This document shows positions 2,570 through 61,600 of a stretch of 64,000 nt of DNA, piece by piece. Under the pieces are notes generated by a model that did not search any database, was not told where the DNA came from, and saw only the letters and a list, made by a program, of their open reading frames with translations. How positions within the stretch are numbered: position 1 is the stretch's first letter; each line of letters begins with the position of its first letter. Source of the DNA: Amoebophrya sp. A120 (taxonomy: Eukaryota > Protista > Dinoflagellata). Both the position numbers and the translations under genes were made by a program. Location of the stretch: NCBI GenBank assembly GCA_905178155.1, contig CAJINV010000013.1, positions 982,344 to 1,046,343 of the forward strand. The letters are read 5' to 3'.

Positions 2570-5500
2570 TCAATCCAGAGCTTCTTCTTGGACAGCAACC
2601 GCGTCGTCTTTGATCGGAGTCGTTTCGCTATCCAAGAAAAAACCTGTGTTAGTGTAACTTTCTTTGGTCGACAGCATCACAAATTTGCTCTACCTGACAG
2701 AGAAAACCTGTCATGCGTGGCTTGTAAGGGAAAACACACACGAATAGAGGACTTCATCATGGCTGTCTGGCATGACAGCTGTAACTCTGTTGCATGTTCT
2801 GCAACACAAATTTACACTTACACAGTTTTTTTCTTGCATATCCGCTGGTTTCATCAGCGTCGACAAAGTCGTCGTCCGCGGTTCCGTTCGGAGTTGTGGT
2901 CACCACAGCCGCCATTTTATCCGCAGCTGCCAGCTGTTCCACGACTTTACTTTCGTGGGCCATGACAGCATCCGCGGACGTGGTCGTCGTACCCTCTCCA
3001 TCTTTGGTTTCTTCAGCCCCTTCTTGCACGGATGATACTTATGCATTGCAACATTTTTTGTCTGGATCATCTAATAAGGGAACCGAGCTTCTGCTCGCGG
3101 CTGTAGCTGTAGGTCGTGGTCACACAAAAGTAAGTATGTCTCTCTTGCATACATGTTGCCACTTCTGGTTTATTCCTTGTATGTTCTTCGACTGGACCCA
3201 GACAAGAACTATACTATACTTGCTGTGGATAATGTTGATGCTCCTACGGCCACTCCTGCTGTGCCATTTTGCGGAGGTTCTACTGCCGTCTCCACGTCGC
3301 CTGTTGACGCTGCGGTCTTTTTGTTCGTCCCGTCCTTGTCATCTGCGTTCTTCTCAGTTCCTGCAGTCTCTTCCTTTTCATCCTCGGTCGCCGTCGTGAC
3401 GCCGGTCGACGCAGGCATGGCGTTGAGCCGGGCCAGCTGCGCCTCGAGTCCCTTCGCCCATCTGGCGTCGTTATCCTGTGCAAAAGTATCGCACTCGTAT
3501 TGTAATCATGCATCACAAATTTTCTTCTCAAGGTAAATCCGCATTACAAATTTAAGTTCTCATGCTGAGGAAATTTGTATATGCATTTATACGAGTACGA
3601 TACTTTTGCAATGCATAGTCGTCGAGTTCTGAGTCCAGGTTGTCTTTGTCGTTGTTTCTTATCAAATGGAAAATAAGTAGGAGCGCTCCCCCGAGAGGGA
3701 ACAAAGTTGAGAACTCTTGCTGTAGCACGTGTACATGCACAAGCATACATTTGCGTTTCTTCCTCATTCTGGAGTACTTACATGCTTACCAGCTAGGAGG
3801 GAGCACATCAAGGACTTTCCATCTTGATATCTTTGGCAGAAGATTTCCCGCTGCCCTTGCCATTGGACTTACCGCCAAATCTATCACGAGAAAAAAGTGT
3901 TACAGTTACACACTCTCATGCACGACAAGCAAGACAAACAACCTCTGCCATGCAGGAAACGCTTGCCAGCGTCATTTCATTCGTGTTTTCCCTTAATATA
4001 GTCTGCGCATTACAAGTTTTCTTTGCCATGCAGAGCAAGTTTGTGATGCTGAAATTACAACAAATGTGTAACTGTAACACTTTTTTCCTGTGATAAAATC
4101 CGCCTTTCTTGCCCGACTGCTGGTGACCTATGGATTGTAAAAATGTCTGGGTCTGGAAGATTCTGACACTTGTCATGCACGTTTTGCATGAGCCCTAATG
4201 TCTGTGATGCATCCCCTAGCAATACAGATTTTTTGAGAGCTTCTTGATGCGTATTCCGCATGACAAATGCCTCCTCAGCGTAGCAAAAATTGCCTTTCTT
4301 TTGGAACTCATGCAATACAAATTTTTTTGGAATCCAAATGCAGCATCACAAGTTGCATTCTTCCAGACCCAGACATTTTTACATTTGATATGACCTCCTT
4401 TGCTGCCACTGTAGGTCGCGTTGCCGGTTTGGCCAGGCGGGGCACTCGCACCTGGAGAAAAGAAGACAAGACGAACTGTGGAACAACTACGGAGCAGCGA
4501 TAAAATCGAGGACGAAAAAGTTTTGGCGATGTTACTTATTTGAAAAGCAAAAGGCACACTGCGAAAATACTACCCTTTTAGTTATCGTGCATCAAAAGAA
4601 AAAACGACAGAGTCACTTAATCAGAATACTGCTTCCAGTCGGGTCCCAGGTCCAGATGAATTTTTCTTCACTATCGGTCAATGTATGCACTTTGAATTTC
4701 AATTTCTTGAGTTTTGCCATGCACAAATAGTAGTAGACCACGCTAGTACGGTCATACGCAACCGCAAGCTAAGACGATGTGCTGCTCAAGAAAGCATCAA
4801 AGCATCCTCAAGATAGATACAGGAGAAGGTTCGCGTGCTAAAAAAGGTACATAAAGAAGCATGGCAAATCTAGAAGAAATATTTCAACTTCGATAACCGC
4901 GCGTCCAAATTGCTGATCCCTTTTCCTTCGAGACTTCGCGCTGCATTGATTTAAAAGTGTGCGAGTTCAACAACAGAATCCTTTGACAGTTGGTCTTTTA
5001 ATATGATGGACGTGATCGAGAAAATGCGTCACGATCATGTTCGTGTCGGTGTGGTTCATCATCAAAAACAGATACTACAAAATATCTTACCAGCACAAAG
5101 TGATTTTCGTAACTTGAGTCGCAAAGCTCGTTGGTTGCCTTCCTTTGTGGACGTGCAAAATTTCTTTCTTTTCCCGAAAGAACTGCTCTCAAAACGCGAA
5201 GATCCTGCTGGGGCTTTCTGCAAACACGGCTACAAGAAAAAATGGTCTTCACAGAAAGCCTTCAGATTCTCGTGTCGCCGACGCAGGCATTACGATAGTA
5301 CATGAAACACTCATTCGGGAAGTAAAAGAACTTTTGTGTTTTCTTAGGTTCAAGAAAAATCGTTTCGACCATGATATTGGATTTGACGCGTCTCTTGCTG
5401 ATACCGTCCATCTTGTACCTCGGAGATGTTGTTTTGAGTGATGATGTGGTCGTCGAAGAGGACGTTGTTTCATACGAATACGCGACTCGCTCCAAATACA

Positions 5501-7565
5501 GACCTTCTCATTCGCTACATCGAACTCCTTGAGCTTGAAGATCATTTTCATTGTGCTAAATTTGTGTATTGAAAATGTTTTCGCTGATACCTTGTACGTA
5601 CACCCGGTTCCGTGCTGGCCGCATGAAGCTATTCGCAATCCAGTGGTTGCCCTGAAGTTCCTCCAGTTTCGCTTTGATATCTTCTGGTAAATCTGCGTCG
5701 GTTGGTATGGAGCTGGAAAAAATCTCTCTGTTCTTTTCGGTCGCTTGGTTTTTCTTCTTTGCTCTAAATCACATCATCTGTTGATGATCAGCACCCGGAT
5801 GTTGAGAGTCAGTGTCATCTTTTGGTGCCATGCTCATGCATGAGGATAATTTCCAGTTCGGTCCTCGGACAAGCCAAGGCAAAATACAAAATTGCAAAAC
5901 ATCGAAAAACATATGGAACGAACAGAAATAGGCTTTTCTTCAACTCCCATACACATCTCTATTGGGTGCATGGATTCGACCCACTTTTTACCTTGTTTTT
6001 TTTGGTTTTCTTTGCCCGGGGCGTAATATTCTTGAATCTGAATCATCGAAGGAACTACGAAAAAACAGAAACAGTTTGCGACTATGCTCCGCTTCCACAC
6101 AGTAAGAATACGCATGGGAAAAATTCCAGTCGCCATGCAAATCAGCACGAAACACAAGCGCAAGATTTTTGCAGCGAGGACCACACTTCTACCACCTACT
6201 GCTACAACTACAAGTACCAGCTCCTTTTCCGCTTCCGTAGCCTCCTTTTTTTCCGCCACCACCGCCGTATTTGCCACCGCCCCCGGAGCCAAACTTGCCT
6301 CCGCCACTGAACTTGCCACCCCCTTTACTTCCGCCACCCCCGAAGGAGGATCCACCCCCGCCGAATTTTCCCCCGGGTCCGCCGTTTCCTTTCGGGTGCT
6401 GATGTCCTCCACCGCCCTTCGGTCCCCCTGCACTGTACCCGTTCATGCCACCACCAAAATTCGGCCCGCCGGGTGGTCCGCCCATGCCGGGAGCGCCACC
6501 GCCTCCCATTCCGCCGTTGTAGGGCTGATGTTGGTGTTGTCCTCCCATCGGATGTTGTGGCCCTGGGGGGCCCATCCCGCCACCTGGCGCCATACCTACA
6601 CCTCCTCCAGGGCCGCCTTTCATCAACATCGGGCCGCCGGGATGTTGATGACCACCCGCCGCGCCGGGTGGTGGACCTCCCATCATCATCGGGCCGCCTT
6701 TCATCATCGGCATTCCGGGGTTCATAGATGGAGGGTAGGCCGGACCGCCGGGGCCCGCCATGTATGCAAGAAGAAAACTGTGTAGTAAGTGTCATGTAAA
6801 GCATGCAACGTCGTTACACTTGTCATGCTGGCCAGCCATAAAAACGTCGTGTCCTCTGTTCATACGCAATGGCCATTTCGATTTCACGCACTAGCTGTGC
6901 ATGATTCTCGTCATGCAGAGCAGATTTGTCATGCTCTTACCCCAACAACAAGACACCTACGCTAACACCGTTTTTTTGTTGGATACCATGGCGGCGGGGT
7001 GCATGGGGTGGTGATTCAGTGCTGCCACACCGGGGTGCATGCCAAAGCCCGGCGCGCCGGGTGGTGGTTGCGACGGGTTCGGCGGGAGTTGCTGCGGTAC
7101 TGGTTGTCCCTTTGCATCTTATCCACGCGGAAAGAAGTTATTTACGGCCTCTGTGTCAACAATTCAAATAAATGGAAAAGAAGGAAAAAAAATTTGATTT
7201 CCTTTGCGAATGTGGTCCGTACAGATCAGGAGGTAGAAATCAGAATTCCGAGAAGTTGATGCTCATCTTTAACATACATGATGCTGTTGACGCGGCACCG
7301 CGCCATCAAAACAACTTATTTGTTTTCCAGGCCGTCGACTGCAAAAGTTCTTTCAACTTTGTTGACTCAGCACAGACCGCACTTTGCTCCGGGTGGATAC
7401 TGCAAAGGGCATTGGTTGCCCCGGTGGTGCCTGCCCCGGGGGAAGGCCTTTTGCTCGCGCGACGTCAGGTCCGGGTGCCGGTGGGGAACTCATCGGAGGC
7501 TGCGGTTGCGACGGTGGCGGGGGGCCTGTGCCGGTTGGCGCGCCGGCCATACCGGTGAGATCCAT
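2570..7565 (-). CDS. Multi-exon Gly/Pro-rich low-complexity protein with an LDSELDD (FoP/ALY C-terminal-like) motif; possibly RNA-binding
   Basis: Exons join in frame after removing introns/introners: MDLTGMAGAP...HPAAM|AGPGGP...GKGAG|ASAPPGQ...SKGG|HQQSGKKGGF|GGKSNG...LDSELDD|ARWAKGLEAQL...SIV|SSVQEGAEE...TS|ETTPIKDD...EALD*. Includes an in-phase 1.77-kb GT-AG intron at 4452-6217. Confidence 0.7.
2629..2840. mobile_element. IR-introner (TATCCAAGAAAAAA family)
   Basis: Ends TATCCAAGAAAAAAC...GTTTTTTTCTTGCATA; flanks TTCGC/TCCGC; similar throughout to 24981-25180; removal restores frame. Confidence 0.85.
3040..3210. mobile_element. Degenerate IR-introner
   Basis: ATACT direct repeat on both sides; TGTCTGGATC / GACCCAGACA inverted remnants; removal gives in-frame SIV-SSVQ. 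Confidence 0.6.
3472..3617. mobile_element. IR-introner (GCAAAAGTATCG family)
   Basis: TIR TGCAAAAGTATCGCACTCGTA / TACGAGTACGATACTTTTGCA; perfect TSD GTCGT; related to 50533-50687. Confidence 0.9.
3882..4095. mobile_element. IR-introner (GAAAAAAGTGTTACAGTTACAC family)
   Basis: ~30-bp TIR, perfect TSD AAATC; close full-length relative at 59899-60115. Confidence 0.92.
4129..4390. mobile_element. IR-introner family A (TGTCTGGGTCTGGAA)
   Basis: TIR TGTAAAAATGTCTGGGTCTGGAAGA, TSD TGACC; reads GT...AG on the minus strand using TSD bases. Confidence 0.92.
6763..6985. mobile_element. IR-introner
   Basis: TATGCAAGAAGAAAAC...GTTTTTTTGTTGGATA; perfect TSD CCATG; internal TGTCATGC motifs. Confidence 0.85.
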
Positions 7566-9291: not shown

Positions 9292-12200
9292 CTACAACTC
9301 CACCTTGACGGGCGAGAACGCGTCTTGTGACACAGCCGTACTCAATTTCTGCCCGCTGCTGCTCCCACCAACATTGCCCGCCCGCACGTCCGTCGCGCTG
9401 CTCTCCTTCCTCAGGTTCTGCTTCATGTTCGCCGAGCTGGCCGTCGTTGATGAGGACGAGGTCGCGTCCGGGGAGGCCAGATTTCCAAAGTTATTCCCCA
9501 TCTTCAGCAATTCCGGCGAAGCCATGCTGTGCTTTGGAATCGAAGAAGACGCGACGCCACCTATGCTAATATTTCCAGCAGTTCCACCGAGTGCCGTCCC
9601 CGCGCCAGCAGCCGTTCCGGGAGCCGCTCCAGGAGCCCCGGGAAGTCTTGAGCTGCTCGTAGAGGAGCTCGCCGGATTCGTGCCGACTTTCACGCCGTTG
9701 ATTACCGTGGGCAGCTGTTGCGCGGCAGCGGCTGCGGCAGTAGGAATAGGTCCTCCTGTTGCTGATGCAATTCCAATTCCACTTCCTCCTGCGTTCAATT
9801 TCATTCCACCACTTGCTCCTGTGACGTTCACATCAGATCCGTAACCCGTTGCGAGGGAACTGGTCCCGGTCATTAGGCTTGAGGAGGAGGAAGAAGAAGT
9901 TTTTGAAGTCGTCCTTGACGCGTTCGTACTAGAGCCAGACTGCAGCTGCTGGTGTGCTGCCGCACTCGCTGTGGTGGCTCCACTCAACTTGCCGCCGGAG
10001 GTCAAGGAAATTGTACTGGCAGCGCTGCCGCCCACTTGCTCTGATCCGGTGGCAAGTGGTGGAAGTTGTCCTGTACCGCTGGTGCCACTAGTATTGTTGC
10101 CAGCAGCTTTATTCGAAGCGATCGTACCGTCGAGAAGCTTGACTAAGTTCCTCGCTTGCGGTCGGTTGCGCACCAAGACGATGTCGAACTCAAATTCGCC
10201 CTCGGAGACGGACTCGATCTCCGATTCCTGGAAGTGCGAGCGGTGCACGAAAACGTCCGCCTGGTTGAAGCGTTTGGCGGCGTCTTCGGATATGGCGTTC
10301 TCAAACGTTACATTCTCAACTGTTACATGAAATTTGTCATGCAAGAACGGCAAAAGTGAAAGGGAAAAGATTGGGCCTTTTGCATTACAGGTTTGGAGCA
10401 GATTATGATGCTATCTAGCGCGTCGAGAAGTTGTCATGCGGAGAAGGCTTGATCGTGTGGAGAGCGATAGTGTTTTTGCATGACAAATCATGTAACAGTT
10501 GAGAATGTAACATTTGAGAACGCCATATCGGAATCCAGAAAGGTGTACTCCGCATCTTGCGGAAAAGGACGGAGACGACCTGATAATTTGTTCGATTGTT
10601 GTTCCGTCGGTCCTCTGGTGCCGTAATTGATTGTCCTGCTGCAAGCGCTACCGCTAGCGGCGCAACATATATAGCGATATTACACGATATCATCGTAGAA
10701 GAATGTCAACAACACGATCCAGTCTGGCATTGCAAAGTTCCAGTACTTGTCTCACTGTACTATGTGTACCCGTAAACTTCGATCTGCCATCAGGCGGGGT
10801 AACCGCCGCTTCCTCCTCTTTCTGCTTTAATTGCGTCACCTCTCGTGCCTGTGGCTGGCCCTTCGCGTTTACCGAGACTTTGAACTGCACCTGGGGTTTA
10901 TTGTGGTGTCTGTCATTTCACCTTTTCATCATGCATTGCAAGTGGTCTCGCTCTCGCAGCAGGAGGAAGGAACTTGTAACTCTCAAGTTTACTGACCCAC
11001 AATGGTCAATGGATTTCATGATCCTGGCGGAAACACTACAACTGGTGTGGTAGTAACAACGAAGTAGTACCTGATCCCCCACTTCGAGGCCCTCAAACTG
11101 CTGTTTGTGCACGAAGACGTCGCGGTCGTACTGATCTTTCAATACCGCGCACGTAATGAAGCCGTAGCCCAAATTGGCGTTGAAGGTGCGAATTACGCCA
11201 CTGAAAACCTTGTCCGCCGGGGGCGCCTTCTTTTTTGCCACCTTCTCACTGATCTTCAATTCCACCGCCTGCGGCTGGTTTTTCTCGTTTAGCGTAAGCT
11301 GGAACTGCACCGGGAGCCCGGGCTCGATCTTGTCCGCGCCTGAGTATTTTTGTGGACGAAATTGATTAGATTAAGATTTACTATATGATTCACAGTACAT
11401 GCTGATGGTGTTGTACATGTACTAGTAAGTGCAAGACAAACATTTCTAAGTTGCGTCTTCGGCATCACAGATTCCAAGTTCTTTTACCTTCGATCTTTCT
11501 GTTGAAGAAGACATCGCGGTCGAATTTCATGTAGAGTTCTTCTTGTCGAATAAAACCAAAGCCCGAGGCGACGTTGAAGGTCTTTACCTGGTGTTTCATT
11601 TTTGTCGTGGTGCTTCATGATTTCATTTTCAAGAACTCCAGCGTCCCCTGTTGGTCATACAACGAATTGGTAAGAAAGCGGCAACTTGAGAATAACTGGT
11701 CTGAAGACATGCGGCGAGTGTTTTATCTGCATCCATCGCATCAAACAGAACAAGTTCTACTTGTAGAACCAGATCCAGAAGAGAAAACTATAATTCGTCT
11801 CATAATTTTTACCACGCCCTCGTAGACGCGGTCTTTGTCAAAACTGGGCTGTGGCGGCTTACTCGGCTGCATCCCGGGGTAAGAACTGGGGTAGAACGAC
11901 GGACCGCTTTGCGTCGGATAGAATGGCTGTGATTGCATCACTTTCTTTTCTTCCAAAGCACGAGCATGTATAATGGCACTGACGTTATTAAAAAAGTAGG
12001 GACATTTATTAAATGCAATTGCAACTACTGCAGGCAGAATGCTCAACATCTTCATTTATTTTACTACCTGCGCCCCCACATTCGCGCTCAAACTTGGAGG
12101 TAACTTTGGTGGGCCGCTTCCCCCGACACCAAAACTCGGTGGCGGCAACCCCGGTGCGGGGCCGATGCTGAAGTTGTTGTACATGTTTGTAGTCTGTTGC

Positions 12201-16491: not shown

Positions 16492-19400
16492 TCAGCCAGA
16501 GTGATGCTGGTGCGCGTGTCCCCCCTGCCCCGTGCCGCTGTTTGCTACCGCGTACCTCGCCTTCTGGATTTGCTCTTCCGTCGCTTGGCCCATGGTTTGC
16601 AACTCCAAATCTACTTGCGGCAACTGCTTGTAGAGACACGGCCCGAATTCCCCGCGCTTCCGGGTCCACCAGAAATCCATGCAGTTGCTGACGCTGCCCC
16701 CCTTGTCCCAGGGGTTCACAAAGTTCTTCTTCACCTGCCCTTTGGGGTCGCTCACCAGCTGCCAGAAGTGCTCGTACCGGTGCATGTTCATCACTTCGTT
16801 CGTCGTGAGGTTCCTGGAGACCAACCGCAGGTGATACGACGTGAGGCAGAGGAGCCAGGGCAACGTGACGACGTGCGAGAAGAGGGAAACCGCGATTATC
16901 GTGTAGTTGGTGATGGTCTAGTTGAGGTTTTGTTTCATCATCAGGATCAACAACATCATCGATACATTGATTGCGAGTCAGTGAAGCCAGCTGTTGCTGT
17001 TCTCTTCTTCATTCTAATTCATGTGGACGTAAGTTATGAGTGAAAATTCGATCAATCCCAAGAACAAGCACAGTGACAGTACTACAAAACGTCTGGTATT
17101 CATCTGCGATCAAGCTGCAACAAAATTATACGAAAACAATGGTGCCCCAGACGCCGTTTTCCGGGTTGTCCTTCATCGCTTCGGACACGATGCAGTACCA
17201 TATCAGCGCGAAATGCGCCAACTGGGTGAAAAACTCCCAGAGACACAGCATCACAAACCGCCTGTTGTTATCCCGGCCAATTGGCACGCCGAGCCAGCCG
17301 CAGTAGTGATCGAACTCGCGCACACACATTTTTGACGTGCTGCAGTACTTCGTGCGCAAGTCCTTTTCTATCCAGGTCTCGGTGCAGAGCCGATGAAGCC
17401 GCTTTTCGTCAAACTTCTCATCGGAATCGATGTCGGCTGCGTGATGTAGTTTTTTGCCATTTTCGTGGTCATTTTGTTTTTGCTATTGCTGGTGCCAAAG
17501 AACAATGTAGGGCAATTTTTGATGGTACCTTATAACGTAGCGCTTCAAAAATAAATATAAAATGGCATAAACAAATCCCCAGCTGCAGGAGCAAAAGCGT
17601 ATGCGTATTAGAATCTTCGAATATGAAGTGACGCAGTTTATACCCATGATTTCCTCCACTGCACTCCTGCCTATGGGTCTTTTCGGCCACGCGCCCGGGT
17701 GGGACTGCGTCATCTGCACAAACGCGATGATTGCCATTGGCACCATGATCCACACAATCACGGTCAGCATCGGTGCGGCCTCGGACCCGACGACGGCTAA
17801 GTACTGCACGTGGACGTAGAGGGCTAATGTCGCGGCACCGAGGTACATGCAGGGAACCAGGTACTTCTGAAAATCCGGTTCGTCCAGCATTTTCTGCATA
17901 TCATTGGCAAAGCTGGATTTTTCTTTCGTGGCCGTCGTTGTTGCGTCCGCCGCTTTTGGCTCCTCGCCTACCCTGGCGCCGATAATCTGCGTCTCGGGGA
18001 GGGATTCCGGGACGAGAGCGGGGTCGGCGTATCCTGAGTAAAAACGTCCCCACGCCAGAGTTGTCATGCAGATTTGCAATGACAGGAACATTTGCAATGC
18101 GCATCGCCAGGAGAGGCATTTTTAGTCGTGTTTTGGAATTTGTAATGCTGTAAACAGGATGAGCAGATGGATTGATGATGCAGCTGGCCTTGCGAACCTG
18201 CACTACACTACGGACTGCAACTTGTGATGCGTGACCCCCAAAAGTTCTAGGTTTGTGTTGCAAAATCCCCATCTTGACTCTGGTGTGGGGATGTTTTTAC
18301 TCAGGATACGGCGAGCTTTTTCACTAAGGCGGTCAGGGACGTATGGAGGTAGGGGTTGTCTGAAGTCGGTTTTTTTGAAAAGTCATCCGATTGCGATTGA
18401 TTTCGATTTGATGTTGAAATTGAAATGCGACTGTGATGTCGCGAAAGTATGTTCACGTGCATGACGCCATTGCAACGTCGTCACGCTTCGGCTTCTCATG
18501 TTGCGCACCAGGAGGCAATAAAAACTTGTTTCCGCTTGACAAACTGCTTGATGGTGCGGCCTTATATCATTCTTGTATATAGCATGTAACTTACTTTTGT
18601 CCTTTGCCGCCAGCTGCATGCAGTCCTCGCCGTCCTTGGTCTTCAGGTAGGGGTTGACTTTCCTCTTTAGCAGAAATTCGCACACCTCGATGCTCCCCGA
18701 CGCCACCGCGCGGTGCAGGGGGGACATTTTTGCGAAGTCTACGTGCTGAAAGTCGGCCTGGAAGTAATCGAGGAATTTCAAATTCATGATGTCTGCCTTG
18801 TAAGCGGCCCAATGGACCGCACCGCAGCCATTGATGTCCATCTCGTCCAAAACTTGCCGGTCACGCTGAAGAAGGAGGAGGAAGGCGAGTTTCCTGTGGT
18901 TTACGTTGTTCTTGTTGTTCGTCAACTTGCGCAATCAGAAGAACTAAACCTTAACCTAATCTTTGTTCACTGCGAAAATTATAGATACGCAACACGGACT
19001 TTTTTCATCTGCCCCTTGTTGTGCACGGCATTTCCTCTCGCTAAATCATGTCTCGCTTTGAAGATATACTGTTTGTGCTGAATCGCCAAAAGGAACGGCG
19101 TTGCGCCGAGGCTGTCTCTTCGTTTTATGTCAGCCCCTCGGGATATCAACATGCGCATGATTTGCACGTGCCCTTGGATTGTCGCCCACATCAATGGTGT
19201 CTGACCGTTGAACCTGATCGACGGGTTGATAAAAATCTTCTAGGTTTACATCTTACTCAATCTCGCCACTTTTACTCGTTGCAAGACAAAATCTGCTTTA
19301 CAATGCAATGCATGAACTGCAGGGGCATAATCACATTTTTCTGTTCGTTCAGTTTATTTGGTTTTGCAAAAACTAGCACTAGTACGTTGCCATCTCCACC

Positions 19401-38349: not shown

Positions 38350-39305
38350 GCAAAAGCGGCCAAAGCAAGGCGGCCAAAGCAAGGCGGCCAAAGCAAGGCG
38401 GCCAAAGCAAGGCGGCCAAAGCAAGGCGGCCAAAGCAAGGCGGCCAAAGCANNNNNNNNNNNNNNNNNNNNNNNNNNNNNNNNNNNNNNNNNNNNNNNNN
38501 NNNNNNNNNNNNNNNNNNNNNNNNNNNNNNNNNNNNNNNNNNNNNNNNNNNNNNNNNNNNNNNNNNNNNNNNNNNNNNNNNNNNNNNNNNNNNNNNNNNN
38601 NNNNNNNNNNNNNNNNNNNNNNNNNNNNNNNNNNNNNNNNNNNNNNNNNNNNNNNNNNNNNNNNNNNNNNNNNNNNNNNNNNNNNNNNNNNNNNNNNNNN
38701 NNNNNNNNNNNNNNNNNNNNNNNNNNNNNNNNNNNNNNNNNNNNNNNNNNNNNNNNNNNNNNNNNNNNNNNNNNNNNNNNNNNNNNNNNNNNNNNNNNNN
38801 NNNNNNNNNNNNNNNNNNNNNNNNNNNNNNNNNNNNNNNNNNNNNNNNNNNNNNNNNNNNNNNNNNNNNNNNNNNNNNNNNNNNNNNNNNNNNNNNNNNN
38901 NNNNNNNNNNNNNNNNNNNNNNNNNNNNNNNNNNNNNNNNNNNNNNNNNNNNNNNNNNNNNNNNNNNNNNNNNNNNNNNNNNNNNNNNNNNNNNNNNNNN
39001 NNNNNNNNNNNNNNNNNNNNNNNNNNNNNNNNNNNNNNNNNNNNNNNNNNNNNNNNNNNNNNNNNNNNNNNNNNNNNNNNNNNNNNNNNNNNNNNNNNNN
39101 NNNNNNNNNNNNNNNNNNNNNNNNNNNNNNNNNNNNNNNNNNNNNNNNNNNNNNNNNNNNNNNNNNNNNNNNNNNNNNNNNNNNNNNNNNNNNNNNNNNN
39201 NNCAAAGCAAAGCGGCAAAAGCAAAGCAAAGCGGCAAAAGCAAAGCAAAGCGGCAAAAGCAAAGCAAAGCGGCAAAAGCAAAGCAAAGCGGCAAAAGCAA
39301 AGCAA
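38350..39305. repeat. Simple satellite flanking an assembly gap (N 38452-39202)
   Basis: (GCGGCCAAAGCAAG)n on the left, (CAAAGCAAAGCGGCAAAAG)n on the right. Confidence 0.9.
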
Positions 39306-39559
39306 GTTCTACCTTTCTGGGGGTGTGTGAGTGTCTTGGCTCTCCCTCTTGTTCGGGGTTCGCCTTTCTCTCGGGAGGCTCGCTGGCGGGCCTGGCCCGC
39401 CCCCCTCCCTGCGAAAACAGCCTGCTGGGTTGGCTGGTTGCAAAAGGGAGAGCGCCGCCCGCGGGGGGCGTCGCCCGCGCCGAATGTGAAGCGCGCCAAG
39501 GGTTGCAGCGTCGGTCGTCGCAAGGCGGTGATAGGTCCGCTGACGTGCTTCAGCCGTAG

Positions 39560-41731
39560 CTTGGACTACCGAAAACAGGTCACGAGCCGGGGCACGTGTC
39601 TCTCGCCTCGCAGCCGGGGCGCGAGGTCACAGCAGGAGAAAGAAGAGGAGAAGAAGCGCTGTAGCTTCATCGTGTCGGCCAACAAGAAGCTTCGCGACCC
39701 TGCTACGCCCTCGAGTGAAAAAGACAAAATTTTGACCGGGCTCCAGTCCTACAGGTTGCGGTTTGTGATACAGACGCTGGGATGGAATGAGACAAAGAGC
39801 TTTCTGAAACACCTTGACTCGCTCCAAGTAGTGAAGGCCAAGAATTTGCACGCGGATTGGGAGGGGCAAAAGACGAAGGAGATCGCTTTGTTTAAACTGA
39901 AAGCACTGCTTGGGCGCTTTCCGAACGTATATACTTGCCTCCCCTGTTGCCCTTTCTTACTTTGCCTCACGTGATGGATGGAGCATTTTGTCGTAGGTGT
40001 ATTATATATTGTGGCCCGTTTTTAATTTTGCCGTAGGTGCATTACAAACATAGTATCAAATGCAAACGCGCCTGGTGGGTCTGGAGGGTTGCGCCTTGTC
40101 GTGCTAAATGCGAAACATGCGAAAAACCTGTGTTGCCTGGACACCAGCAGCCCTCTTGTTTTGCCAATTTTAAAGGGAATCTCTCATGCAAGATAGGCAT
40201 GGCCAGAGATCTCACATAATTTGTCATGCTGCATACCAGACCTGCACCTCGCGGGTCGGGGTCATGGACAACCTGCATGACAGATCTGGCATCCTTCGTT
40301 CCAGACCCAGACAGATTTGCATCTTGGTGAACACTCGATATTTGATGACTATTTCCACCGCGGCCGCCCGTGAATAACTTAGCAGGGCCGTGTGCTCTAA
40401 AACCATAAATAGAGATCTTTGATTGAGTTTGAAAACCTTTATCAGGTGCCGGAGAAGGTTCAGGAGGCCGCGCGGGCCGTCCGGCTCGAACCTTTCGGAA
40501 AGATCACGGAGCCCCTCGAGATCATCCAGTGCAGGGCAGTACCAACTGCAAATATGTCTGGGTCTGGAACGAGTGGGATCTGTCATGCTAGTTTCCACCA
40601 GCGCAGATCTGCATTGCAGGAGCGGTCGGAGGTGTTGCGCAGATCCTAGCCTCCCGGAGAGGGCATTTGTCATGCAGGACAAGTATGAGCAAGCCTGCGC
40701 GAGAGTTGTGACGCTAGACCTAGATCAAGAGCCCGCGCCACATGTATTACGGGTCATGCATGACAAACACAAACCTCACTTCTCCCCGCACTTCTGTTTA
40801 GCATGACAAACACAAACCTCCCCAATCTTCCAGACCCAAACATCTTTGCAATGCATAGGCAGAGGCGGCCTCTTCGCCGGGCCAGATGTACGACTTGGAA
40901 TTGCGGCTGGACTCCCTTTCGTTCCGTTGCTCCTGTCCGTACCACGCCGGTTTTTGCAAGCACCTGGTCCGCATGGCCGACGCGTACAACGCTGTTCATT
41001 TTAGATTTCTTTGCTTTTCAAATACCTCTCAAGCTCAGTAAGTCCCTGCTAGAACGTCGCTGGATCTGCATGCCTACTACAATTGTCTTCGGAGAAGTAT
41101 CTTCGCCCCGCGCTCGATTGTCTATCTTCGCAAACTGCCACCTATCAGGTTATATGATTGGGCCGCGCTACAGCCGCACCCCGTGCATATATGAAAGGGC
41201 ACAACCCCCCCTCCCGCTCTCCCTTCTTTGCCGTACAAGATTCCGAGTCGAGCCTTTGCCTGTTAGCATTGTCTGCATGACAGATTGACTCCGGACTTCA
41301 CAGCAGCCCTACAACCTTGTAGGATTTTTTCATGCAGAAGCTGCACCTTTGCCAGCGCTTGCGCTGCTGCTCATGCAACACAAATGAGGGGGAGGGGGGG
41401 TTGTGCACTTTCATAGTATGTGGGGAAGACCCAGGACGCGCTCGACATGTTTTCGCCGGCTGAGAAGATGGTTTTTGATCTGCTCAACTCCACGGACATG
41501 CCCCTCGGGAAAATTTCCGCGGTTGACATTTTGATGGGCAAGGGGACAAAGCTGAAGGACTCAGTCTACCGAGGCCGTGGCATGCAGATCCCGAGCGCCG
41601 AGAAGACGCTGCACGCGGCTGTCGACAACTTGGAGAAGACCGGCGTCTTGAGGAGGATCCCGATCAGAGCCGGACTTCCGCACACAAGGCTAGTCGTTGC
41701 TCGTGGTCTCGGTGGGCGCGGGAAGAAGTAG
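39560..41731 (+). CDS. MULE-borne protein region: helical N-terminal part + SWIM zinc finger + RQC-like winged helix (separate gene or transposase C-terminus)
   Basis: Spliced: ...LLGRFPN|VHYKH|SIFDDYF...IIQCRA|EAASSPGQMYDLELRLDSLSFRCSCPYHAGFCKHLVRMADA|LYDWAALQPHPVH|VGKT...LGKISAVDILMGKGTKLKDSVYRGRG...AVDNLEKTGVLRR...HTRLVV. Confidence 0.7.
40054..40329. mobile_element. IR-introner family A
   Basis: TATCAAATGCAAA...GGGTCTGGA / TCCAGACCCAGACAGATTTGCAT; right end degenerate. Confidence 0.75.
40540..40857. mobile_element. IR-introner family A
   Basis: TGCAAATATGTCTGGGTCTGGAA TIR; perfect TSD GGCAG. Confidence 0.88.
41190..41415. mobile_element. IR-introner (TATGAAAG-GCACAACCCCCCCTCCC family)
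   Basis: 26-bp TIR with one mismatch; flanks GCATA/GTATG. Confidence 0.85.
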
Positions 41732-43145
41732 TCGCCTTTGGGTCTATGTCTTTCTTCCGGATTTACTAGTCGGCCAGCTACGTTTACACTTTCTTCTCCA
41801 AATCACCGACGCTTTTTGCGCCTCTGTAGATGCTTCCTTTTACTGTTGTGCCCAGTGTTGCGACTTCTTACTACTACAACTCGTTTTGTTGTTGATATGT
41901 TAGCTCTAGATCCTATCTCTCTTCGGACGTCAGCACCTTGCTATACTTTTAGTGACTTCGACACTTTCTACCGTTACGGCATTTTATGACTCTATTACTG
42001 GCGTCTTCACCACATGCTACGGCGCTTTTCTTCTGTTTATTCGCTCCTTTACTCTGACTCTCTCATGTCCAGACATAAAGATGTGCGCGAGCCTCAGTCT
42101 CGAGAACGAAGATGAACCTATCCACCAGATTACGTTTTTGCAATACACATTCGGTCTGTCTAGCTTTCGTGTAAAGCTTCCAGTGCTTTCATCGTTGTAA
42201 TTCTCTTAAAACGCAACCGATTTGAGTGTCTTCAGCATACAGACTGCAGCTCGTGCTTGGATTTCAAGCATAGATGACGCCTGTGAGTAGAACGCACAGA
42301 GATCGACGACTGTGGCCGTCAAGTATAAATGGCGCTCTACTCGGGAGTACAGTGACGGAAGCTAGTAGACGGCGTTGCTCCTAGCCGTATTTGGAGCCAG
42401 TTTCGGTATATTGGAGTCTGGCAGCAAGAGTGCAGCTCGTAGATTCTGAACATTTCTGCTTTGACGGTTAGGAACATGAAGCAAAGCCGAGCGAAGGGCT
42501 TGGAAACGTAAACGATATCGGCGTGCAAGTATGCACTGAGAGGGGCAAAACTCCGCGGGCCCTGAGCTGGCTGTAGCCCTTAGAAGTATTGCAGAGGAAC
42601 ACGAAGCTGCAGGTGCTTAGTTTCGTATGACGATTGCTTAGGGGCTTGTGCGTGCTTGGAGTTTTTTTCCATTCGCGCGCGCCCTTTCAGCAACAAAAGT
42701 AAAAGGGGTCCACAGGAAACACGCCAGACCTCTCGCCATCATCGAGTGTGTCTGCTACCTGTCCCCGACAAATAAAAAAAAAAGAAGTTTACATGTCCGA
42801 AGCAAAACAATACTCAGTAAGGAGGTACGACGCGCAGCGACACATCGTTGAGTCGCGCGCGCGATCGTTGATGCGCAAAGGTTGAGGCGCGTCAGAACGT
42901 TGAGATGCAAACGTTGAGATTCTGGTCTGTTAACCTAAAATAAACCTGTTTCTTCGGGTTCGTACTAGTAGCTGCACTCGATAACATAATGTAGTAAACA
43001 AAGTAAGTAAGTAGACCAGCAAAATCTTCATTCGCTTCGTAAAGGTAAACATTTTGCTACTGACGCGCAGAAAAATCGAAGTTCGCGGTGAAGGATCAGG
43101 TGGACAGTAACATCCTCCCTCCGGTATTCCAGCCCCAAAAGCCGT

Positions 43146-44508
43146 TCATGGAAATGTCTTCTTGGTCATGATTGTGTAAAAGTCCTCTACTGAAATCTCG
43201 CCATTGCCCATACTGTCTGCGTATTACGAGGAAAAGTGCCAGGGTCGCGCAGTGAGATATTCATTTTCGAAGTAGATCTTTCTTCTACCCGCTAGGCATG
43301 CAGCTTTGTGATTTTGAGAGCTTTTGTAGTATTCATTGATATGTTTACTTACCGCATCAAACAAGAACGTTGGAATATCTTCGATACACCAGCGTGAAAA
43401 AGATTCTACAACCGCGACGCTGCTCACTGAGCTTTCCCTGACACTTTTGCAATGCATAGAGCGCGCTCGATCATTTCCCTCAGTTCCTCGTCGGACATCG
43501 TTTCACCTTTGTAGTATAGGTACATTTTCATACATAGTATTTGGCCGTCTCGTCAGAACTCGGTTTTCTTGTTCTGAAAATAAGAATTATCGCTTTGTTT
43601 CTATTTCTATATCGATGCGGAAAATGCAAAGCCAATCAAATACCGAGTTCCTTCGCCACTCTCTTCAGGTTTTTCGAAGTGATGGCTCCCGTCTTATCGT
43701 CGTCGAAAAGCGCGAAAATTTTGGAGATGCCTTCCCGCGTCTCCTTGTCGCCGAGCTTGGCGGTTATTGCGTCCAGAAATTGCTCGAATTCGATCATGCC
43801 AGACATATCTCGGTCCAGGTCCTGGATCATCTGGAATACCTGGGTTTTTGGAGTCAGTTGTATGGAAAATTGCAGCATCAAACCACCTATGAAGTCTAGT
43901 TATCGGCGTCGAAAAGAGAATGCGAGAATGGAATCATGATCATGCTCCTCATCATGCATGTTGTTCATGTTCAGTGGTGGGCAGCATTAGATAGAAAAAC
44001 CGTTGTACCGTTGGATTTTTTGAGTCGAAGCCCAAGCTTTGCATTGCGTGTTTCAGCTCCTTGGGGTCGATGGTGCCGCTACCTTTGAGCAGTTTTATTT
44101 GTTCTTCTTTTTCTCGATCGTCTCTATCACTAAAACTAGATCTAGATTCACGACAAATTATAAGCCTCGCATGAAATGAAGTTGTAATTCAGCGCATGCG
44201 CATCAGAAACAAGTTTGAGTGTCATACCTGTTGTGTCGAACAGGTTGAATGCTTCCCTGATCTCGTCGATTTCATCCTCCGTCAAACCTGGTCTCTCGTA
44301 CCTGGAAAGAAGAAGCAGTCGATTTTTCATATCATGCACCAGCAGCTTCCGCAGCACTACGGGTCGTCGTCGTGTCATGTCATACACAGACTTGCTCACG
44401 CACTTCCTGCACGAAAAAATTGTAGTTCGTGTGCCATGTGAAAATGTCTATATACGTCAGTTTTCTCCTGCCACCGCCTCGGGAGCCAGCGCCTGCTCGT
44501 GACGCCAT
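43146..44508 (-). CDS. Centrin (EF-hand; alveolate [10 protein letters not shown] type), multi-exon
   Basis: [18 protein letters not shown]|[24 protein letters not shown]|[20 protein letters not shown]...[22 protein letters not shown]|[15 protein letters not shown]|[23 protein letters not shown]. Confidence 0.93.
43222..43458. mobile_element. IR-introner in centrin
   Basis: TAT...AAAAGTGCCAGGG / CCCTGACACTTTT...ATA; shared GCG flank; removal gives ERA-D. Confidence 0.8.
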
Positions 44509-45682: not shown

Positions 45683-48600
45683 TTACACATTGTTTGCCGC
45701 GCCGCTACCACGCTTCATCTTGTGTTTTTTATTTTTTCCGCTACTCCCAGACGAAGTACCGAATCCCCCCGTGCATCCGCGATCATAGGTCGCCTCGCTC
45801 CGGTGAGACACCGGCGACCCGATGTTTTCACCCGATAAATTCTCCTGATCGCCATGATCGTCCTGCTGTTCTCCCGAAGACGAGTTGTTGCTGTCTTTAT
45901 TCCGCACTTCCTTTTTGATCTCCTTCAGTTTGTCCTTGGTATCAAATGCAGAAGTGTCTGGGTCTGGAAGAATGCATGTTTGTCATGCTTGTCTGGCGTG
46001 ACTCTTAAATCTGTTATGCACGTTACCCAAGAGCTCCATTTTTCTGTGATGCAGAAACGCAGTTTGTCATGCAGAATAGGCAACACCTAGAAGCTCAGAA
46101 ACTTGTCATGCTGAGCCAGCACTTGTGGCCCCATCATGAGACGCCACCCAGCATCACAAGTTTCCAGACCCAGACACTCTTACATTTGATACTTGGCCTC
46201 CTTCAACAACTTCTTCTCCGTTTTCTTCGCTTCTTCCGCCTTCAACCACCGATCGTACTGCGATTTCGTCATCCACTCCGTCACGGACGCTTGGAAAAGC
46301 TGGCTCACGACCACGAGCCAGGAGCCGATAAACAGCAGCAACAAAATCCACGCACTGCCTTGTCGTCCGGCTTTCGGCCGGAACAGTTCCTGGATCCACA
46401 GTGGCGTCGTGCGGTACTCTTCCGGCTGTTGGGGCGGAGTGGGGTTCAAAAACCTGATTTGTTGATAGATAGATTAGAGAAAACAAAATGCTGTTGATGC
46501 TTTACGACTTGTCATTACGCTGCGGCTGCCTGGAAGTAGCTCCTCTCGATCCATTAAGAAGGAACCGAAACAACAATCAGGAAAAGCACATCATGCTGGC
46601 CACACAGTGGGAACCACTGACTAGTTCAACTAACATGCTGGAGCTGGCACGACATTCTCTAAAAAATTCGTACGTGTGGTCTACGTCTAGTTTTTCAGTA
46701 CATACTTACTTCCGCTCTACCTCCACTCGTCCGCGTGATGGAAGGGTAGGAGAAGGTAGAACGGCGAGATCGCCAACCGCCACCACAAATGGGATTTCGA
46801 GTGGTAGATCTTCACCTCCACCATGGACATCACCCCGCAGAGGTAGCACCCCAGGGCAAACTGCATTTCGTGCCCGAATTGCATCCACCAGGTCGCTCTT
46901 TGCAGCATGGTCCTGGTGGCCGGGTCGACGGAGCGGCGATACGGAGCTTGGTCGTTCTCGGGGGCCGCCGCTGCTTCCCCAAAGGGGAGGGCGGGGAAGC
47001 AGTGGATGAGACACAGCAGAATGTAGGCCGACCAGAATAAGACCAGCAAGACACTATGGACCACGCAGGGTGCGATGCACCCAAAGCATTTTTTCAGTTC
47101 GAAAAGCTCTGGCTCCTGATACGCCTCGTACGCACCGGAAAACTGGGGTTTGATCAAATGGATGTACAGTACAACAAACGCGATATCGTTCGTACTAGTT
47201 CTATCTGTAACAATAACAGGTCACCAGCATAGGCGGCACAAGTGTAAAACTAAAATAATATTGCTGTACAATAGTGGATGATGTGAAACACCAAACCCAA
47301 GCATGCAAGCTTGTTCATCACCAACGCAAAATTACCACGTAGAAAATTCTACCCGATCCTGGCCCGCTAGCAATCCGGTTTGCTCTCCGGGCCCGTTTTG
47401 CCCATGGTTCACCTCGTCCCCATTTGCGCGCCTTTGCGGCGGCCGGTCCCCAACGTACGCATACCCGTTCTGCCCCTGCCAGTTATCGAGCAACCGCCTT
47501 CGCGGAAATTCTTCCAAAAATCTTCCGAAATGCTTCCAGCGCCCCAGCTTTTCAATGCGCCCACAGCCTGTAAGCTGTGGGGCCATCTATTTATGTCGGG
47601 CCAGTTGTGGCTGCGGCCACATCGATTTGCAGGCGGAGAACAGACTTAAGAGCGCCGTAGCGCCGGGCTCAATTTTTGAGCCGCACGGCACTACGAACCG
47701 CAAAAAGCGCCAATCAAACATCGCAAGCGAGGCGATGCGTATCGAGATACACCGCCCTGCCAAGCAACTTGCCCAGATTCGGCAGCGCCCTGTAGGTGGC
47801 CTACTGGGACACCAGAGGGGAAGGGCGCAACCAGAATGAACTCCGGGCCAGGCCGGTAGCGAGGTGCCGGACGGGCGGTCGGGTGCAGGTGTGCGAGGTA
47901 GGCCGCGCGCTGCCGGGCGAAAAAGTGGCGCCTTGGCGCATTACAAATTGCTTTTTTCAGAAAAAAAAAAAATTTCGATTTCCCTTTCGCCCAGGAGAGT
48001 CGACCATACCGTTGGCGGAAGGATTTCGGAAGGATTTCGGAAGCATTTCGGAAGGATTCCGGAAGGATTTCCGGAAGCCTCGGGAAGGATTTTCGCGAGC
48101 ATTCCGGAAGCCCTTCCGGCGGCCCCTTCGGAAGGATTTTCTGTTGGCCCTCTTCAGGGACAGCTGTCGGCTTGCGACGCACTCCGCGAGCCGCGGGTCC
48201 TTCCACAAGCAACCCATTACGGCCCGGCGGCTGCATCTTCTATCTAAGGCCGCGGGCCGGCCCCCTCCGGGCGCGACAGGCTTGCTGGGAAGCCTGCCTC
48301 GGCCTTTCGTTAAGTTCGTTCCGCTGTAGTGCACAACACAGGGGGCAAGGGGGCGCAACTCGCCCGATTTCCGGCGCTGGTTTAAGGTGGCAATGGGGCG
48401 CAAGCCCTACAGCGAGCGGCTGCGCGCCACGCCTCGGGCTACTGTCTACGCCACCCTGCCGCGGTGGGCTGCCCGTCCCAGGGCAGAAAAACAAGAAGGC
48501 CGTCCGGCTGCACTCAGGGCTGGGGCGCCGCGAACTTTGCCGGGGTGCTGGAAGGATTTCGGAAGATTATTGGAAACATTTCCCCCCGATTGTGTTAACA

Positions 48601-58600: not shown

Positions 58601-61600
58601 TCGGTCGCCGCGTTCACAATCCGCACGGCGTCGAAGTCCTGCTCCCTGCTGCTGTTGAGCAGATTCTGGATCTGCTTCGCGTCCCGTTTCGCGGCGGACT
58701 CCAAGTCACCGGTGATGGTTTCGGCATAATCCAGGCAGAGCTGCAGGAGCTTCAGAATCGCGTCTCCTGCAGGGATACCAGGAGGTCCCGCACTTGGCAT
58801 GGCGGACGATGAAGAAGAAGGATTTCTCGCGCTATTCGTCTGCTGTTTGTATTCTTGCAGGAAGTCCGGCTTCTGTGAAGCAGTTGTATTCGGTGGGACC
58901 TCCACCGACGCGGGTTGTGGTGAAACAACTGCTGAGGGTGCTGAAGTCGTGCTTGGTTTATTGTCTTTGTCTCTACCCACCGTTTTGTCTTCGGGAGCTG
59001 CACCTACCGTGTTGCTTGATCGTCGTCCTAGAGACACTTCATGTTCGTCGTTCTTCGCATTTGGTATTCCTTGATCATCTCGCACTTCGACCGTGACAGC
59101 CCCACTCGTGCGCATTTGCAGCTTCTTGCGCAGAGGACTCATTACCCTTCCTGTTTGAACATCGGCTGTCGTCCCGTCGCCGTCATGCTCGTCGGGGATC
59201 GCTTCTTCTTGCTCACTCAAAGCCGCGGTGAGTTCCTTTTCTGTTTCGGAGAGTTTTTTCAGTAACTCTCCCATCTCCTCGATCTCCTCCTTCCACGCGG
59301 CCTCCTTGACAGAATACCGGCTGTGGAGCTTGGAAATCTCAGACGCATGTCGCGAATCCGCGGTCCTGATTAATTTCGTGGTGAATAAAATCGCAAATAG
59401 TAATGAGAGGTATGGTGCGTGAATGTTTATTTTGCGGAAAATGCACCTGGTCGCACAACAAATGCAGCTCCTGTCGTCCACTTGCGACGATGAATCTAAG
59501 TAATTGATACGGCAAAAAAGCAAAAAGTAGAACTTGCCATTGCGGTTGCTTCACATACAATTTCCAAAAACACCACCGCAATCACGAAGTCTTTTGTACC
59601 TGCACTGTTCGAAGACCTTTTCTATTTCGATAGTCAATCCTGCAACTGTAGAAACAGTGTGTTCCGGAGGTACTGGTCCCGTTTGCTGTCCCCGTGTCTG
59701 TTCCACATCGCTCCTTTTCTGTGCCGCGTAATAGCTCTTCACGATCCCCCGACAAACTTCCGCGAGCTGCTTTAACTGGTCCATTTCAGAAAAACCTCCC
59801 GAGGCCAGCTCCTTGTCAACAATGCCATGCTCGTCCTCCGCTGCATTTAGTTCGCGACTTTGGTCGTCGACGACATTCACGCCGGATTGCCGGACGGATA
59901 TCGCAAGAAAAAAGTGCTACAGTTACACATTGTGTTGCAAGACCGGCAACACAGATAACCTCTCTCATGCAGGAAATGCTTGGGATCCTCATTTTCTTCC
60001 TGTTTTCCGTTCTTATGATCTTCGCATTACAAGTTTTCCCTGCCACTACACAGAGAAAATTTGTGATGCAGAAACTCCAACAAATGTGTAACTGTAACAC
60101 TTTTTTCTCGTGATAACGGACAGCGGTTTAACACTAGTTGTATTCGATTTCAACCCCATCGATCGCTTGCTCCTGTCCGAGGAATCATTCAAGTGCTGTT
60201 TCTGCAGAAAAACTCTGTGTTTGGTATTTTCAGCGAAAATCGTTCTCGCTTCCTCCACGTCTAGATTCTTTGCGGCCAAGTACTCGAGGATCGCATTCTG
60301 ATACACTTCCTCCGTCTCTTTCGTTTGCTGAAGGATCTTCTCTCTGGTGGTCTCTTCCAACAAACTACTTGTTTCGCGGCCCATCATAATTGCGGTTTGG
60401 TCTGATGGCGGCGGCTGCACGACAGGTTGAGGCTGCAGCTGCGTTGAAGCGATGTTGATGTTTCCGCGCAGTTCGTCATGTTGATGCTGTTCTTGCATCT
60501 CGTCCTGTTGCGCTTTTCTGATTTCAAAGTCTACGGGATCAAGGCTGGTTCTTCCAAATTGGAAAAATTCGTGCTCGTGGCCGGACTTGGAATGATCATC
60601 CATAAGAGTGTTTGTCGTGCCATCGTCCATGATGTAGCTCCGCCTCGCGCCGTCGTCGTGGTAGTTCTGGGCAGCGTGCTCCTGCATTTGAAAATCACCC
60701 GGCCGGTGAGGGCCCCGTGGTGCAACGTGCTGTTCTGGCAATTTCAAGTGGTGGAATAACCGGTCTTCGCGACTCTGCTGGTGCGTAGTTGCAATTTCTT
60801 GATCATGGTCGTGGCGGTAGTGATTATTGTACTTCTCAACGTTCTCGGCTGTCAGCGGCGTGGTTCTACTTTGCGAGACACCTACTTCTTCACGGATTAT
60901 ATCGACATCTTCAACCTGATCCGGATAAAAGCCTCCATAGTTATTGACGTAGAATTGCGTATTTCGGCCGAGCCCGTCCCTCGTGACCTGTTTCTTCTTG
61001 TAGAACACCTGGTGGGCTTGATTTCTGTACAGGGATTCCTTGGGCTGTTCCGCTTCTTCTTCTTCTGGCCCCTCCGCCCCTCCTTGCCGGAGGTGCTGGT
61101 GGCCTACAGGCTTTCCTGCCCCGGGGGAAGGAGTAAAGTCTCCTTCAGAGGAACTGCGCAAATGCGGCTGCTGTTGCTGCCGGATCTCGATAGGGATTAG
61201 TTGCTCGGCCTGCTGGTGCAGGTCAGCGGCGGTGGGGGACGAAATTCGCAGCTTCATTTGCACCACCGGCTGAAGCGAGTCCTTACCCCCTCGCGGCTTT
61301 TCCAGGTTCGCCTCCTGCTGCTCCAAACTCAGGGGCGGAGTGCCGAATTGCGGTAGAGCAGGTTGCGGGAGCGATGTTGGCAACGACGATACTTCAACCG
61401 CTTTTTTCGTACCCGCTTTATTTCGTGAAGAAATTCCGCCAGCTCGAGGTCCGGCTGCGGCGGCTTTCTGTGCGGCCTCCTGGGATATGCGCAGGTTTTC
61501 CAAAACACTATCCTTCTTCGCGACCAAGACCACTTCCTCTTCGGTTGTGCCTTCTGCGGCCTTCGACAGTGTGCGTGCGGAAGCAGAACCACTGCCACAA

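What the first reader, a model, noticed from the sequence alone, without database searches (positions are those of the whole stretch)
2629..60115. At least 24 MITE-like introners from several TIR families share TAT...ATA ends and ~5-bp TSDs
Seen: families with unrelated TIR cores mostly begin TAT and end ATA, with 5-bp duplications (GTCGT, AAATC, TGACC, CCATG, TCGGA, TGGAA, ACCTC, CTTGG, GGCAG, ACGGA). Removing the element plus one TSD restores conserved domains (ankyrin, CSD, EF-hand, TerC). Known: IR-introners are described in Amoebophrya. Inference: one transposase type mobilises all families. TAT/ATA ends with 5-bp TSDs do not match the resident MULE (9 bp) or a superfamily I can name, so the autonomous partner is unidentified.
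Basis: partly seen in the sequence, partly recalled or inferred. Interest (0 to 1): 0.75.

Follow-up and report, generated by a model that had tools for sequence, protein, structure and literature searches.

The report
Amoebophrya transposon introns, one shared grammar
These small hairpin-ended mobile DNA pieces sit inside genes of what is likely the marine parasite Amoebophrya and, where tested, are missing from spliced transcript contigs together with one copy of a 5-base target repeat; the class is already published, and its many families share one end code that likely points to a single, still unproven transposase lineage.

Summary
In detail: 26 TIR elements, 50 of 52 ends TAT, flanking repeat exactly 5 bp. 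The class is published for Amoebophrya A120 (TAT start, 5-bp repeats, and one family labelled '5-bp TSD, TA/TA termini'). Tested here: four elements are missing from transcript-like contigs by length plus 5 nt, and the one junction that fixes the cut puts it 1 nt before and 4 nt after the element, with no GT-AG. A sister assembly (about 90% identical) has empty sites at 4 of 4 testable elements and 5 insertions of its own, so the repeat is a true target duplication and insertion is recent. In its loci, 12 families share TAT(C/G)...AAA ends and an internal 9-mer, which supports one mobilising lineage. No autonomous element was found here. The scan noted the same system, the same cut register and candidate hAT-like master elements in other windows of this genome; I could not check those masters.

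The parts
2629..2840 (.). e1, TIR element, family A (with e4, e6, e10, e26); repeat 1 mismatch
3472..3617 (.). e2, family B (with e24); perfect 5-bp repeat
3660..3829 (.). e3, decayed singleton; repeat 2 mismatches
   Evidence: inside an unbroken DNA contig
3882..4095 (.). e4, family A; perfect repeat
4129..4390 (.). e5, family C (core TGTCTGGGTCTGGAA, commonest); perfect repeat
6763..6985 (.). e6, family A; perfect repeat; transcript-like contig piece stops at 6757
7120..7399 (.). e7, decayed singleton; repeat 3 mismatches
10291..10527 (.). e8 (pairs with e11) in a cold-shock-domain gene; perfect repeat; contig piece stops at 10285
18030..18308 (.). e9 in an ankyrin gene; perfect repeat; contig piece stops at 18024
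24981..25180 (.). e10, family A, in the ankyrin-DHHC gene; repeat 1 mismatch
25232..25467 (.). e11 in the ankyrin-DHHC gene; perfect repeat
26635..26896 (.). e12, family C, inside an ankyrin repeat; perfect repeat
30522..42935 (+). 12.4-kb MULE-like element (GG..CC ends, 23-bp TIR, 9-bp repeat) that carries e13-e21; a passenger host, not the likely mobiliser
   Evidence: DDE-like and SWIM-like motifs seen by eye, no Pfam hit
31696..31968 (.). e13, family C, one end CAT; perfect repeat
32306..32574 (.). e14, family C-like ends; 2 mismatches
33327..33558 (.). e15, family C-like ends; 2 mismatches
33780..34029 (.). e16, family C; 2 mismatches
34137..35093 (.). e17, family C-like ends enlarged to 957 bp by inner sequence; 2 mismatches
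35973..36247 (.). e18, family C; 3 mismatches
40054..40340 (.). e19, family C, degenerate; right boundary uncertain, 4 mismatches
40540..40857 (.). e20, family C, one end TAC; perfect repeat
41190..41415 (.). e21, C-rich core family; 2 mismatches
43222..43458 (.). e22 in a centrin-like gene (- strand); skipped stretch 43218-43459 fixes the cut at 1 nt before and 4 nt after the element
   Evidence: skip 242, no ambiguity, runs X3 and X5
45940..46191 (.). e23, family C; skipped with 5 nt; absent from L036
50533..50687 (.). e24, family B, in the TerC gene; skipped with 5 nt; absent from L036
52614..52829 (.). e25; skipped with 5 nt; absent from L036
59899..60115 (.). e26, family A; perfect repeat; absent from L036 and L026

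Best explanation
These are short non-coding TIR elements that sit in exons between 5-bp target duplications, are missing from spliced transcript contigs where tested, and are likely moved by one divergent cut-and-paste transposase lineage, most likely hAT5-like, encoded elsewhere in the genome. Steps. (1) Shown: insertion duplicates 5 bp of an unbiased target, in either orientation, and sites differ between close strains. (2) Inferred: the enzyme reads a common code, TAT(C/G) at the tip, an A-run at 11-14, and a subterminal 9-mer about 30-45 bp inside, while the cores drift into families. (3) Shown at 4 sites, and compatible at 3 more: the element plus 5 nt is absent from the RNA form, so the original coding sequence returns. 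(4) Shown at one site, compatible at three: the removed piece is 1 nt + element + 4 nt. (5) Inferred: a relaxed spliceosome does the cutting, since this register puts the element's TA at intron positions +2/+3, as in the host's GTA introns, while the hairpin joins the ends.
For: 5-bp repeat and TAT ends: 222 perfect and 35 one-mismatch of 320; at most 3 perfect at any length 3, 4 or 6-12; 263 hits of the 5-bp TAT..ATA class in a scan not anchored on TAT. Empty sites at 4 of 4 window elements and 5 insertions private to L036. RNA skips of length plus 5 at 4 of 4 elements in covered genes, on contigs that also skip 9 GT-AG introns; three more contig pieces stop exactly before the left repeat. 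A DNA contig runs unbroken through e6 and e7. Register: e22 exact; e24 and e25 compatible; at e10 the relative P0001 reads SYFKAW, so the changed base lies in the copy that this register removes. 12 multi-copy families among 306 elements share the end code and all 12 carry the 9-mer; 911 copies against 3.6 in shuffles. Identical terminal 8-mers occur on unrelated cores. hAT5 has 5-bp duplications (PMC12730594); hAT enzymes bind subterminal repeats (PMC10368747). 8 of 9 host introns begin GTA; U1 was not detected in A25 or A120 (PMC7789003).
Against: No autonomous TAT..ATA element or transposase was found in the window or in 554 kb of related loci, so the hAT assignment rests on TSD length, subterminal repeats and unchecked scan notes. 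The only published coding-like TA..TA, 5-bp family in A120 (fam38) has integrase-like, not hAT, homology. Farhat et al. argued against general transposase mobilisation in A120. The register rests on one exact junction, and runs X3 and X5 are one sample whose RNA nature is the tool's guess. No G excess at intron +1 (66 of 202, p=0.54) and only 14 of 202 sites allow any GT..AG register, so nothing shows spliceosome use directly. The e22 hairpin is only modestly better than shuffles (z -1.7). The 9-mer could be a splicing signal instead of a transposase site.
Confidence: 0.6

Rival explanations
1. The mobiliser is an integrase-type DNA transposase (IS3EU/GingerRoot/IS481EU or Ginger2-like) and not hAT-like; the rest of the model is unchanged.
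For: A120 fam38 has TIRs, TA/TA termini, 5-bp TSD and homology to Copia/Gypsy elements (PMC12130899). IS3EU always has TA..TA termini and IS481EU has TNT..AYA (PMC10045372).
Against: IS3EU and GingerRoot make 6-bp duplications and IS481EU about 4, 15 or 25 bp; here 6 bp is never perfect (0 of 26, 0 of 320). Ginger1/2 termini differ according to the authors themselves. fam38 is about 810 bp with 5 copies. Recalled integrase motifs gave no convincing hit in the loci or window.
Confidence: 0.2
2. Several transposases make these elements, and the shared ends and 9-mer reflect survival: only elements with this code can be spliced out of exons.
For: A fixed 1/4-nt cut restores the frame only for this geometry; other element types are also spliced here (a 1.1-kb insert with other ends); Dataset S2 lists a Mutator introner family too.
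Against: Splicing needs only +2/+3 TA by the best model, yet families also share 8-mer caps, the A-run, and the 9-mer in both orientations near both ends, as expected for DNA-binding sites.
Confidence: 0.12
3. Removal from RNA is not spliceosomal: a structure-guided endonuclease and ligase cut at fixed distances from the hairpin, as proposed for euglenid nonconventional introns. This rivals step 5 only and is compatible with either mobiliser.
For: No GT-AG and no base bias at the cut; both orientations are used (44:36 in the largest family); euglenid introns also pair their ends with a longer 3' overhang (+4,+5 with -7,-6; PMC3935182).
Against: The register places TA exactly at +2/+3, matching host GTA donors; nearly all spliceosomal proteins are present.
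Confidence: 0.3
4. The elements spread through RNA (reverse splicing of the excised intron) or are cut from DNA like ciliate internal eliminated sequences.
For: Short, non-coding, exon-resident, TA-tipped.
Against: Either orientation relative to the host gene and 5-bp duplications without sequence bias fit DNA transposition; the DNA run shows no excised form at e3, e6, e7 (that run may be the window's own source).
Confidence: 0.05

Closest known systems
Amoebophrya sp. A120 introner elements (Farhat et al. 2021, PMC7789003; seen: abstract, sections 10-12 whole, passages of 16, 17, 32, 34, supplement legends; figures not seen)
   Same: Inverted repeats starting TAT, then about seven variable bases and an A-run; 3-5 nt direct repeats (5 bp in the legend of Fig. 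S19); non-canonical splice sites; about 240 nt; many families.
   Different: That paper calls repeats and splice positions variable and rejects general transposase mobilisation. Here the repeat is always 5 bp when measured from the TAT, empty sites prove duplication, the cut fits one register, and families share a subterminal 9-mer.
A120 introner families in Gozashti et al. 2025 (PMC12130899; seen: main-text passages, SI legends, all 58 A120 rows of Dataset S2)
   Same: Most families are TIR DNA elements of 100-330 bp; fam38 is annotated '5-bp TSD, TA/TA Termini'.
   Different: 56 of 58 families have superfamily 'Unknown' and automated TSD calls vary; the paper describes diverse origins and does not unite them under one end code in the parts read.
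hAT5 group of hAT transposons (PMC12730594 passages; Hermes, PMC10368747 passages)
   Same: 5-bp duplication; short TIRs; subterminal repeats in both orientations near both ends.
   Different: No hAT transposase was seen here; hAT5 terminal sequence was not found in the passages read (YA..TR for hAT is recalled); intron behaviour is a host feature.
IS3EU/GingerRoot and IS481EU (PMC10045372 passages)
   Same: TA..TA or TNT..AYA termini.
   Different: 6-bp, or about 4/15/25-bp, duplications; no integrase found.
Euglenid nonconventional introns (PMC3935182 passages)
   Same: Non-GT-AG, ends paired, direct repeats at junctions, recent gains, MITE origin proposed.
   Different: Conserved CA/TG pair at +4,+5/-7,-6; no TAT..ATA code; unrelated lineage.

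Membership tests
Amoebophrya A120-type introner elements | Terminal inverted repeat starting TAT, variable spacer, A-run | tested here: met
   against PMC7789003 section 11
Amoebophrya A120-type introner elements | Short direct repeat at the exon borders | tested here: met
   5 bp
Amoebophrya A120-type introner elements | Removed from transcripts at non-canonical sites | tested here: met
   4 of 4 in covered genes; contigs of one sample
Amoebophrya A120-type introner elements | Repeated in the genome | tested here: met
   self-BLAST; very high summed depth in DNA run X1
Amoebophrya A120-type introner elements | Window comes from strain A120 | not testable with these tools
   no genome held; inferred from the published end signature
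MITE (non-autonomous TIR transposon) | TIRs, target duplication proven by empty sites, no coding capacity | tested here: met
hAT5 | 5-bp target duplication | tested here: met
   definition
hAT5 | Subterminal repeats near both ends | tested here: met
   binding not tested
hAT5 | Cognate hAT transposase in a full-length copy | tested here: inconclusive
   none in window or 554 kb of loci; reported only in unchecked scan notes
IS3EU/GingerRoot | TA..TA termini | tested here: met
   definition
IS3EU/GingerRoot | 6-bp target duplication | tested here: not met
   0 of 26 and 0 of 320 perfect at 6 bp
IS3EU/GingerRoot | Integrase-type transposase | tested here: inconclusive
   motif scan found none; small sample of the genome
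MULE/Mutator | GG..CC termini and 8-9-bp duplication | tested here: not met
   resident element has them; the small elements do not
Canonical spliceosomal intron | GT/GC-AG borders | tested here: not met
   e22 intron begins CT and ends CA; 14 of 202 sites allow GT..AG in any register
Canonical spliceosomal intron | Lariat intermediate, snRNP dependence | not testable with these tools
   no raw reads covered the genes

The most novel reading that the evidence does not exclude
One divergent hAT5-like transposase lineage, missed by family profiles, mobilises all TAT..ATA families by reading a shared tip and subterminal 9-mer, and its 5-bp duplication matches a host splicing ruler (1 nt before, 4 nt after the hairpin) that ignores GT-AG, so every exonic insertion in either orientation becomes a scar-free intron. 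This would supply both the missing engine and the splice code for tens of thousands of introns.
Probability: 0.45. Interest if true: 0.72.

Novelty: already known. Interest (0 to 1): 0.42.

Why it matters
How new introns arise in bulk, and how Amoebophrya removes tens of thousands of non-GT-AG introns without a detected U1, are open questions. The class is known, but three results here make it testable: a fixed 5-bp duplication with empty sites in a close relative (argues for DNA transposition, which the 2021 paper doubted), one end code with a 9-mer that can serve as bait for the transposase, and a fixed cut register that a minigene can test.

Tried and rejected
No whole genome was available, so the genome-wide hunt for long elements was not possible. 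Pfam scan of 76 window ORFs (chosen from 226 of 95 aa or more) found no transposase, not even in the MULE-like exons. Rfam found nothing in the window. The TIR pattern had no match in viral contigs. Among 321 perfect-repeat pairs in the loci, 9 exceeded 400 bp; the cleanest long one (L022 505-1608) was translated and has no long ORF, the others were judged from their ends only. Recalled integrase and hAT motifs gave no credible hit. Raw RNA runs X9 and X10 covered only a shared TIR, not these genes; no RNA holder was listed as such. The MULE-like gene region 40400-41700 had almost no contig cover, which is no evidence on expression. I considered removal of element plus 2 nt (one extra codon), suggested by the NT/AN splice-site counts in Dataset S2, and rejected it for the tested sites: all four skips are length plus 5. 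PMC6004678 (passages) gave nothing on hAT5. Paper searches found no paper naming the transposase or a fixed register; Roy et al. 2023 (Curr Biol) was not read, and figures S19-S25 of PMC7789003, which I could not see, may already show the register.
Full report
Observation. Inverted-repeat, TIR-plus-direct-repeat and self-BLAST scans gave 26 elements of 146-318 bp (one enlarged to 957 bp) between 2629 and 60115; boundaries are. 50 of 52 ends read TAT. The flanking repeat is 5 bp: 102 of 130 bases match, against 33 (sd 5.7) for shuffled pairings, and no other length from 1 to 12 exceeds 0.32 identity. 12 repeats are perfect, 4 have one mismatch and 10 have two or more; 7 of those 10 lie inside a 12.4-kb MULE-like element (30522-42935, GG..CC, 9-bp repeat; mismatch excess p=0.009).

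Independent copies. After dropping 10 overlapping or duplicate loci, a scan of 554 kb not anchored on TAT gave 707 raw hits; the largest class was 5-bp repeat with TAT..ATA (263), and the printed examples of 4- and 6-bp classes were palindromic words inside TIRs (not all checked). Of 320 TAT-anchored pairs chosen without regard to repeats, 222 had a perfect and 35 a one-mismatch 5-bp repeat. 306 distinct elements fell into 12 multi-copy families and 7 singletons. Only the largest family was selected by the pattern. All families share TAT(C/G), a variable stretch and an A-run at 11-14; identical terminal 8-mers occur on unrelated cores; and the 9-mer YTGT(A/C/G)ATGC, defined on the window (64 of 72 copies in 10.9% of it), occurs in all 12 families (911 copies against 3.6 in base shuffles), mostly 30-44 bp from an end, with 31 the commonest spacing. 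Target bases show no preference.

Empty sites. L036 and L026 are orthologous to 44.9-63.3 kb at 90-93% identity. All 4 window elements in that span (e23-e26) are absent and leave one copy of the 5-mer; L036 has 5 elements of its own that the window lacks (4, 1). The relative P0001 (90% identical to the exon queried, 1193 aa) runs through the sites of e10-e12 without extra residues. The repeat is therefore a target duplication and the insertions are younger than the split of two close strains.

Removal from RNA. Contigs of runs X3 and X5 (one sample; RNA is the tool's guess, but they skip 9 GT-AG introns) skip e22, e23, e24 and e25 by exactly length plus 5 (e25 in X3 only). Three more X3 pieces stop just before the left repeat of e6, e8 and e9, while a DNA contig runs unbroken through e6 and e7. 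At e22 the two repeat copies differ and the joint is unambiguous: on the gene's strand the removed piece is 1 nt + element + 4 nt, beginning CT and ending CA. e24 and e25 allow this register, and at e10 it removes the copy that differs from P0001. Among 202 of 306 elements whose host strand a codon model could assign (not validated), there is no G excess at +1 (66, p=0.54), only 14 allow GT..AG in any register, and both orientations occur. 8 of 9 host introns begin GTA, and the register puts the element's TA at +2/+3, which suggests a relaxed spliceosome; this step is inferred.

The partner. None was found in the window or loci. The resident MULE-like element does not fit, but it shows why searches fail: its gene region is split by nine introners and gave no Pfam hit. 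Two named groups fit in part. hAT5 has 5-bp duplications (PMC12730594) and hAT enzymes bind subterminal repeats (PMC10368747). IS3EU/GingerRoot have TA..TA ends but 6-bp duplications (PMC10045372), and A120 fam38 has TA/TA ends, a 5-bp TSD and integrase-like homology (PMC12130899). Before reading scan notes I favoured the integrase type; several unchecked notes on 10-26-kb elements with these ends and hAT-like genes elsewhere in this genome moved me to hAT5-like. I could not see those sequences.

Prior art and verdict. Farhat et al. (PMC7789003) describe A120 introners with TAT starts, an A-run, 3-5-nt repeats and non-canonical splicing; the organism is inferred from that match. Gozashti et al. 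leave 56 of 58 A120 families without a superfamily. The system is already known. The uniform 5-bp rule with empty sites, the shared 9-mer and the fixed register are refinements that I did not find in the parts read; figures I could not see may hold part of them, and the scan has noted them on other pieces of this genome. Interest 0.42.

Noticed in passing
window 30522-42935: MULE-like element with 23-bp TIRs and a 9-bp repeat carries nine introners with more decayed repeats than those in host genes. X3 contig ends join the centrin-like 3' region near 42940 to sequence left of 30512, so the element is either absent from some alleles or skipped in RNA.
   Followed up: partly
window 47480-48618: A 1.1-kb insert with other ends, a 29-bp flanking duplication (47476-47504 and 48619-48647) and an 11-bp internal repeat is skipped in transcript contigs (1119 nt, non-GT-AG), leaving about 24 extra nt; absent from L036.
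   Followed up: partly
window 20931-22878: Four near-identical 486-bp tandem copies between two genes; no Rfam match.
   Followed up: partly
window 53057-55038: 13.6 tandem copies of a 146-bp unit, 95% alike.
   Followed up: no
window 34430-34573: A near-perfect 144-bp hairpin inside the enlarged element e17, probably part of a different nested insert.
   Followed up: no
L022 505-1608: A 1104-bp TAT..ATA element with a perfect 5-bp repeat, 9-mer-like words near one end and no long ORF; may be a deletion derivative of a larger element.
   Followed up: partly
window 28560-30150: GC-rich stretch with several overlapping open frames, no Pfam hit and no match in the loci.
   Followed up: partly
window 16400-20400 and 23400-27700: Two neighbouring ankyrin genes on the minus strand share a DHHC-like stretch (17288-17363 matches 24745-24820).
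   Followed up: no
window 4342-4391: About 70 raw RNA reads of run X9 match this TIR but continue into other sequence on both sides: an unspliced copy from another locus.
   Followed up: no
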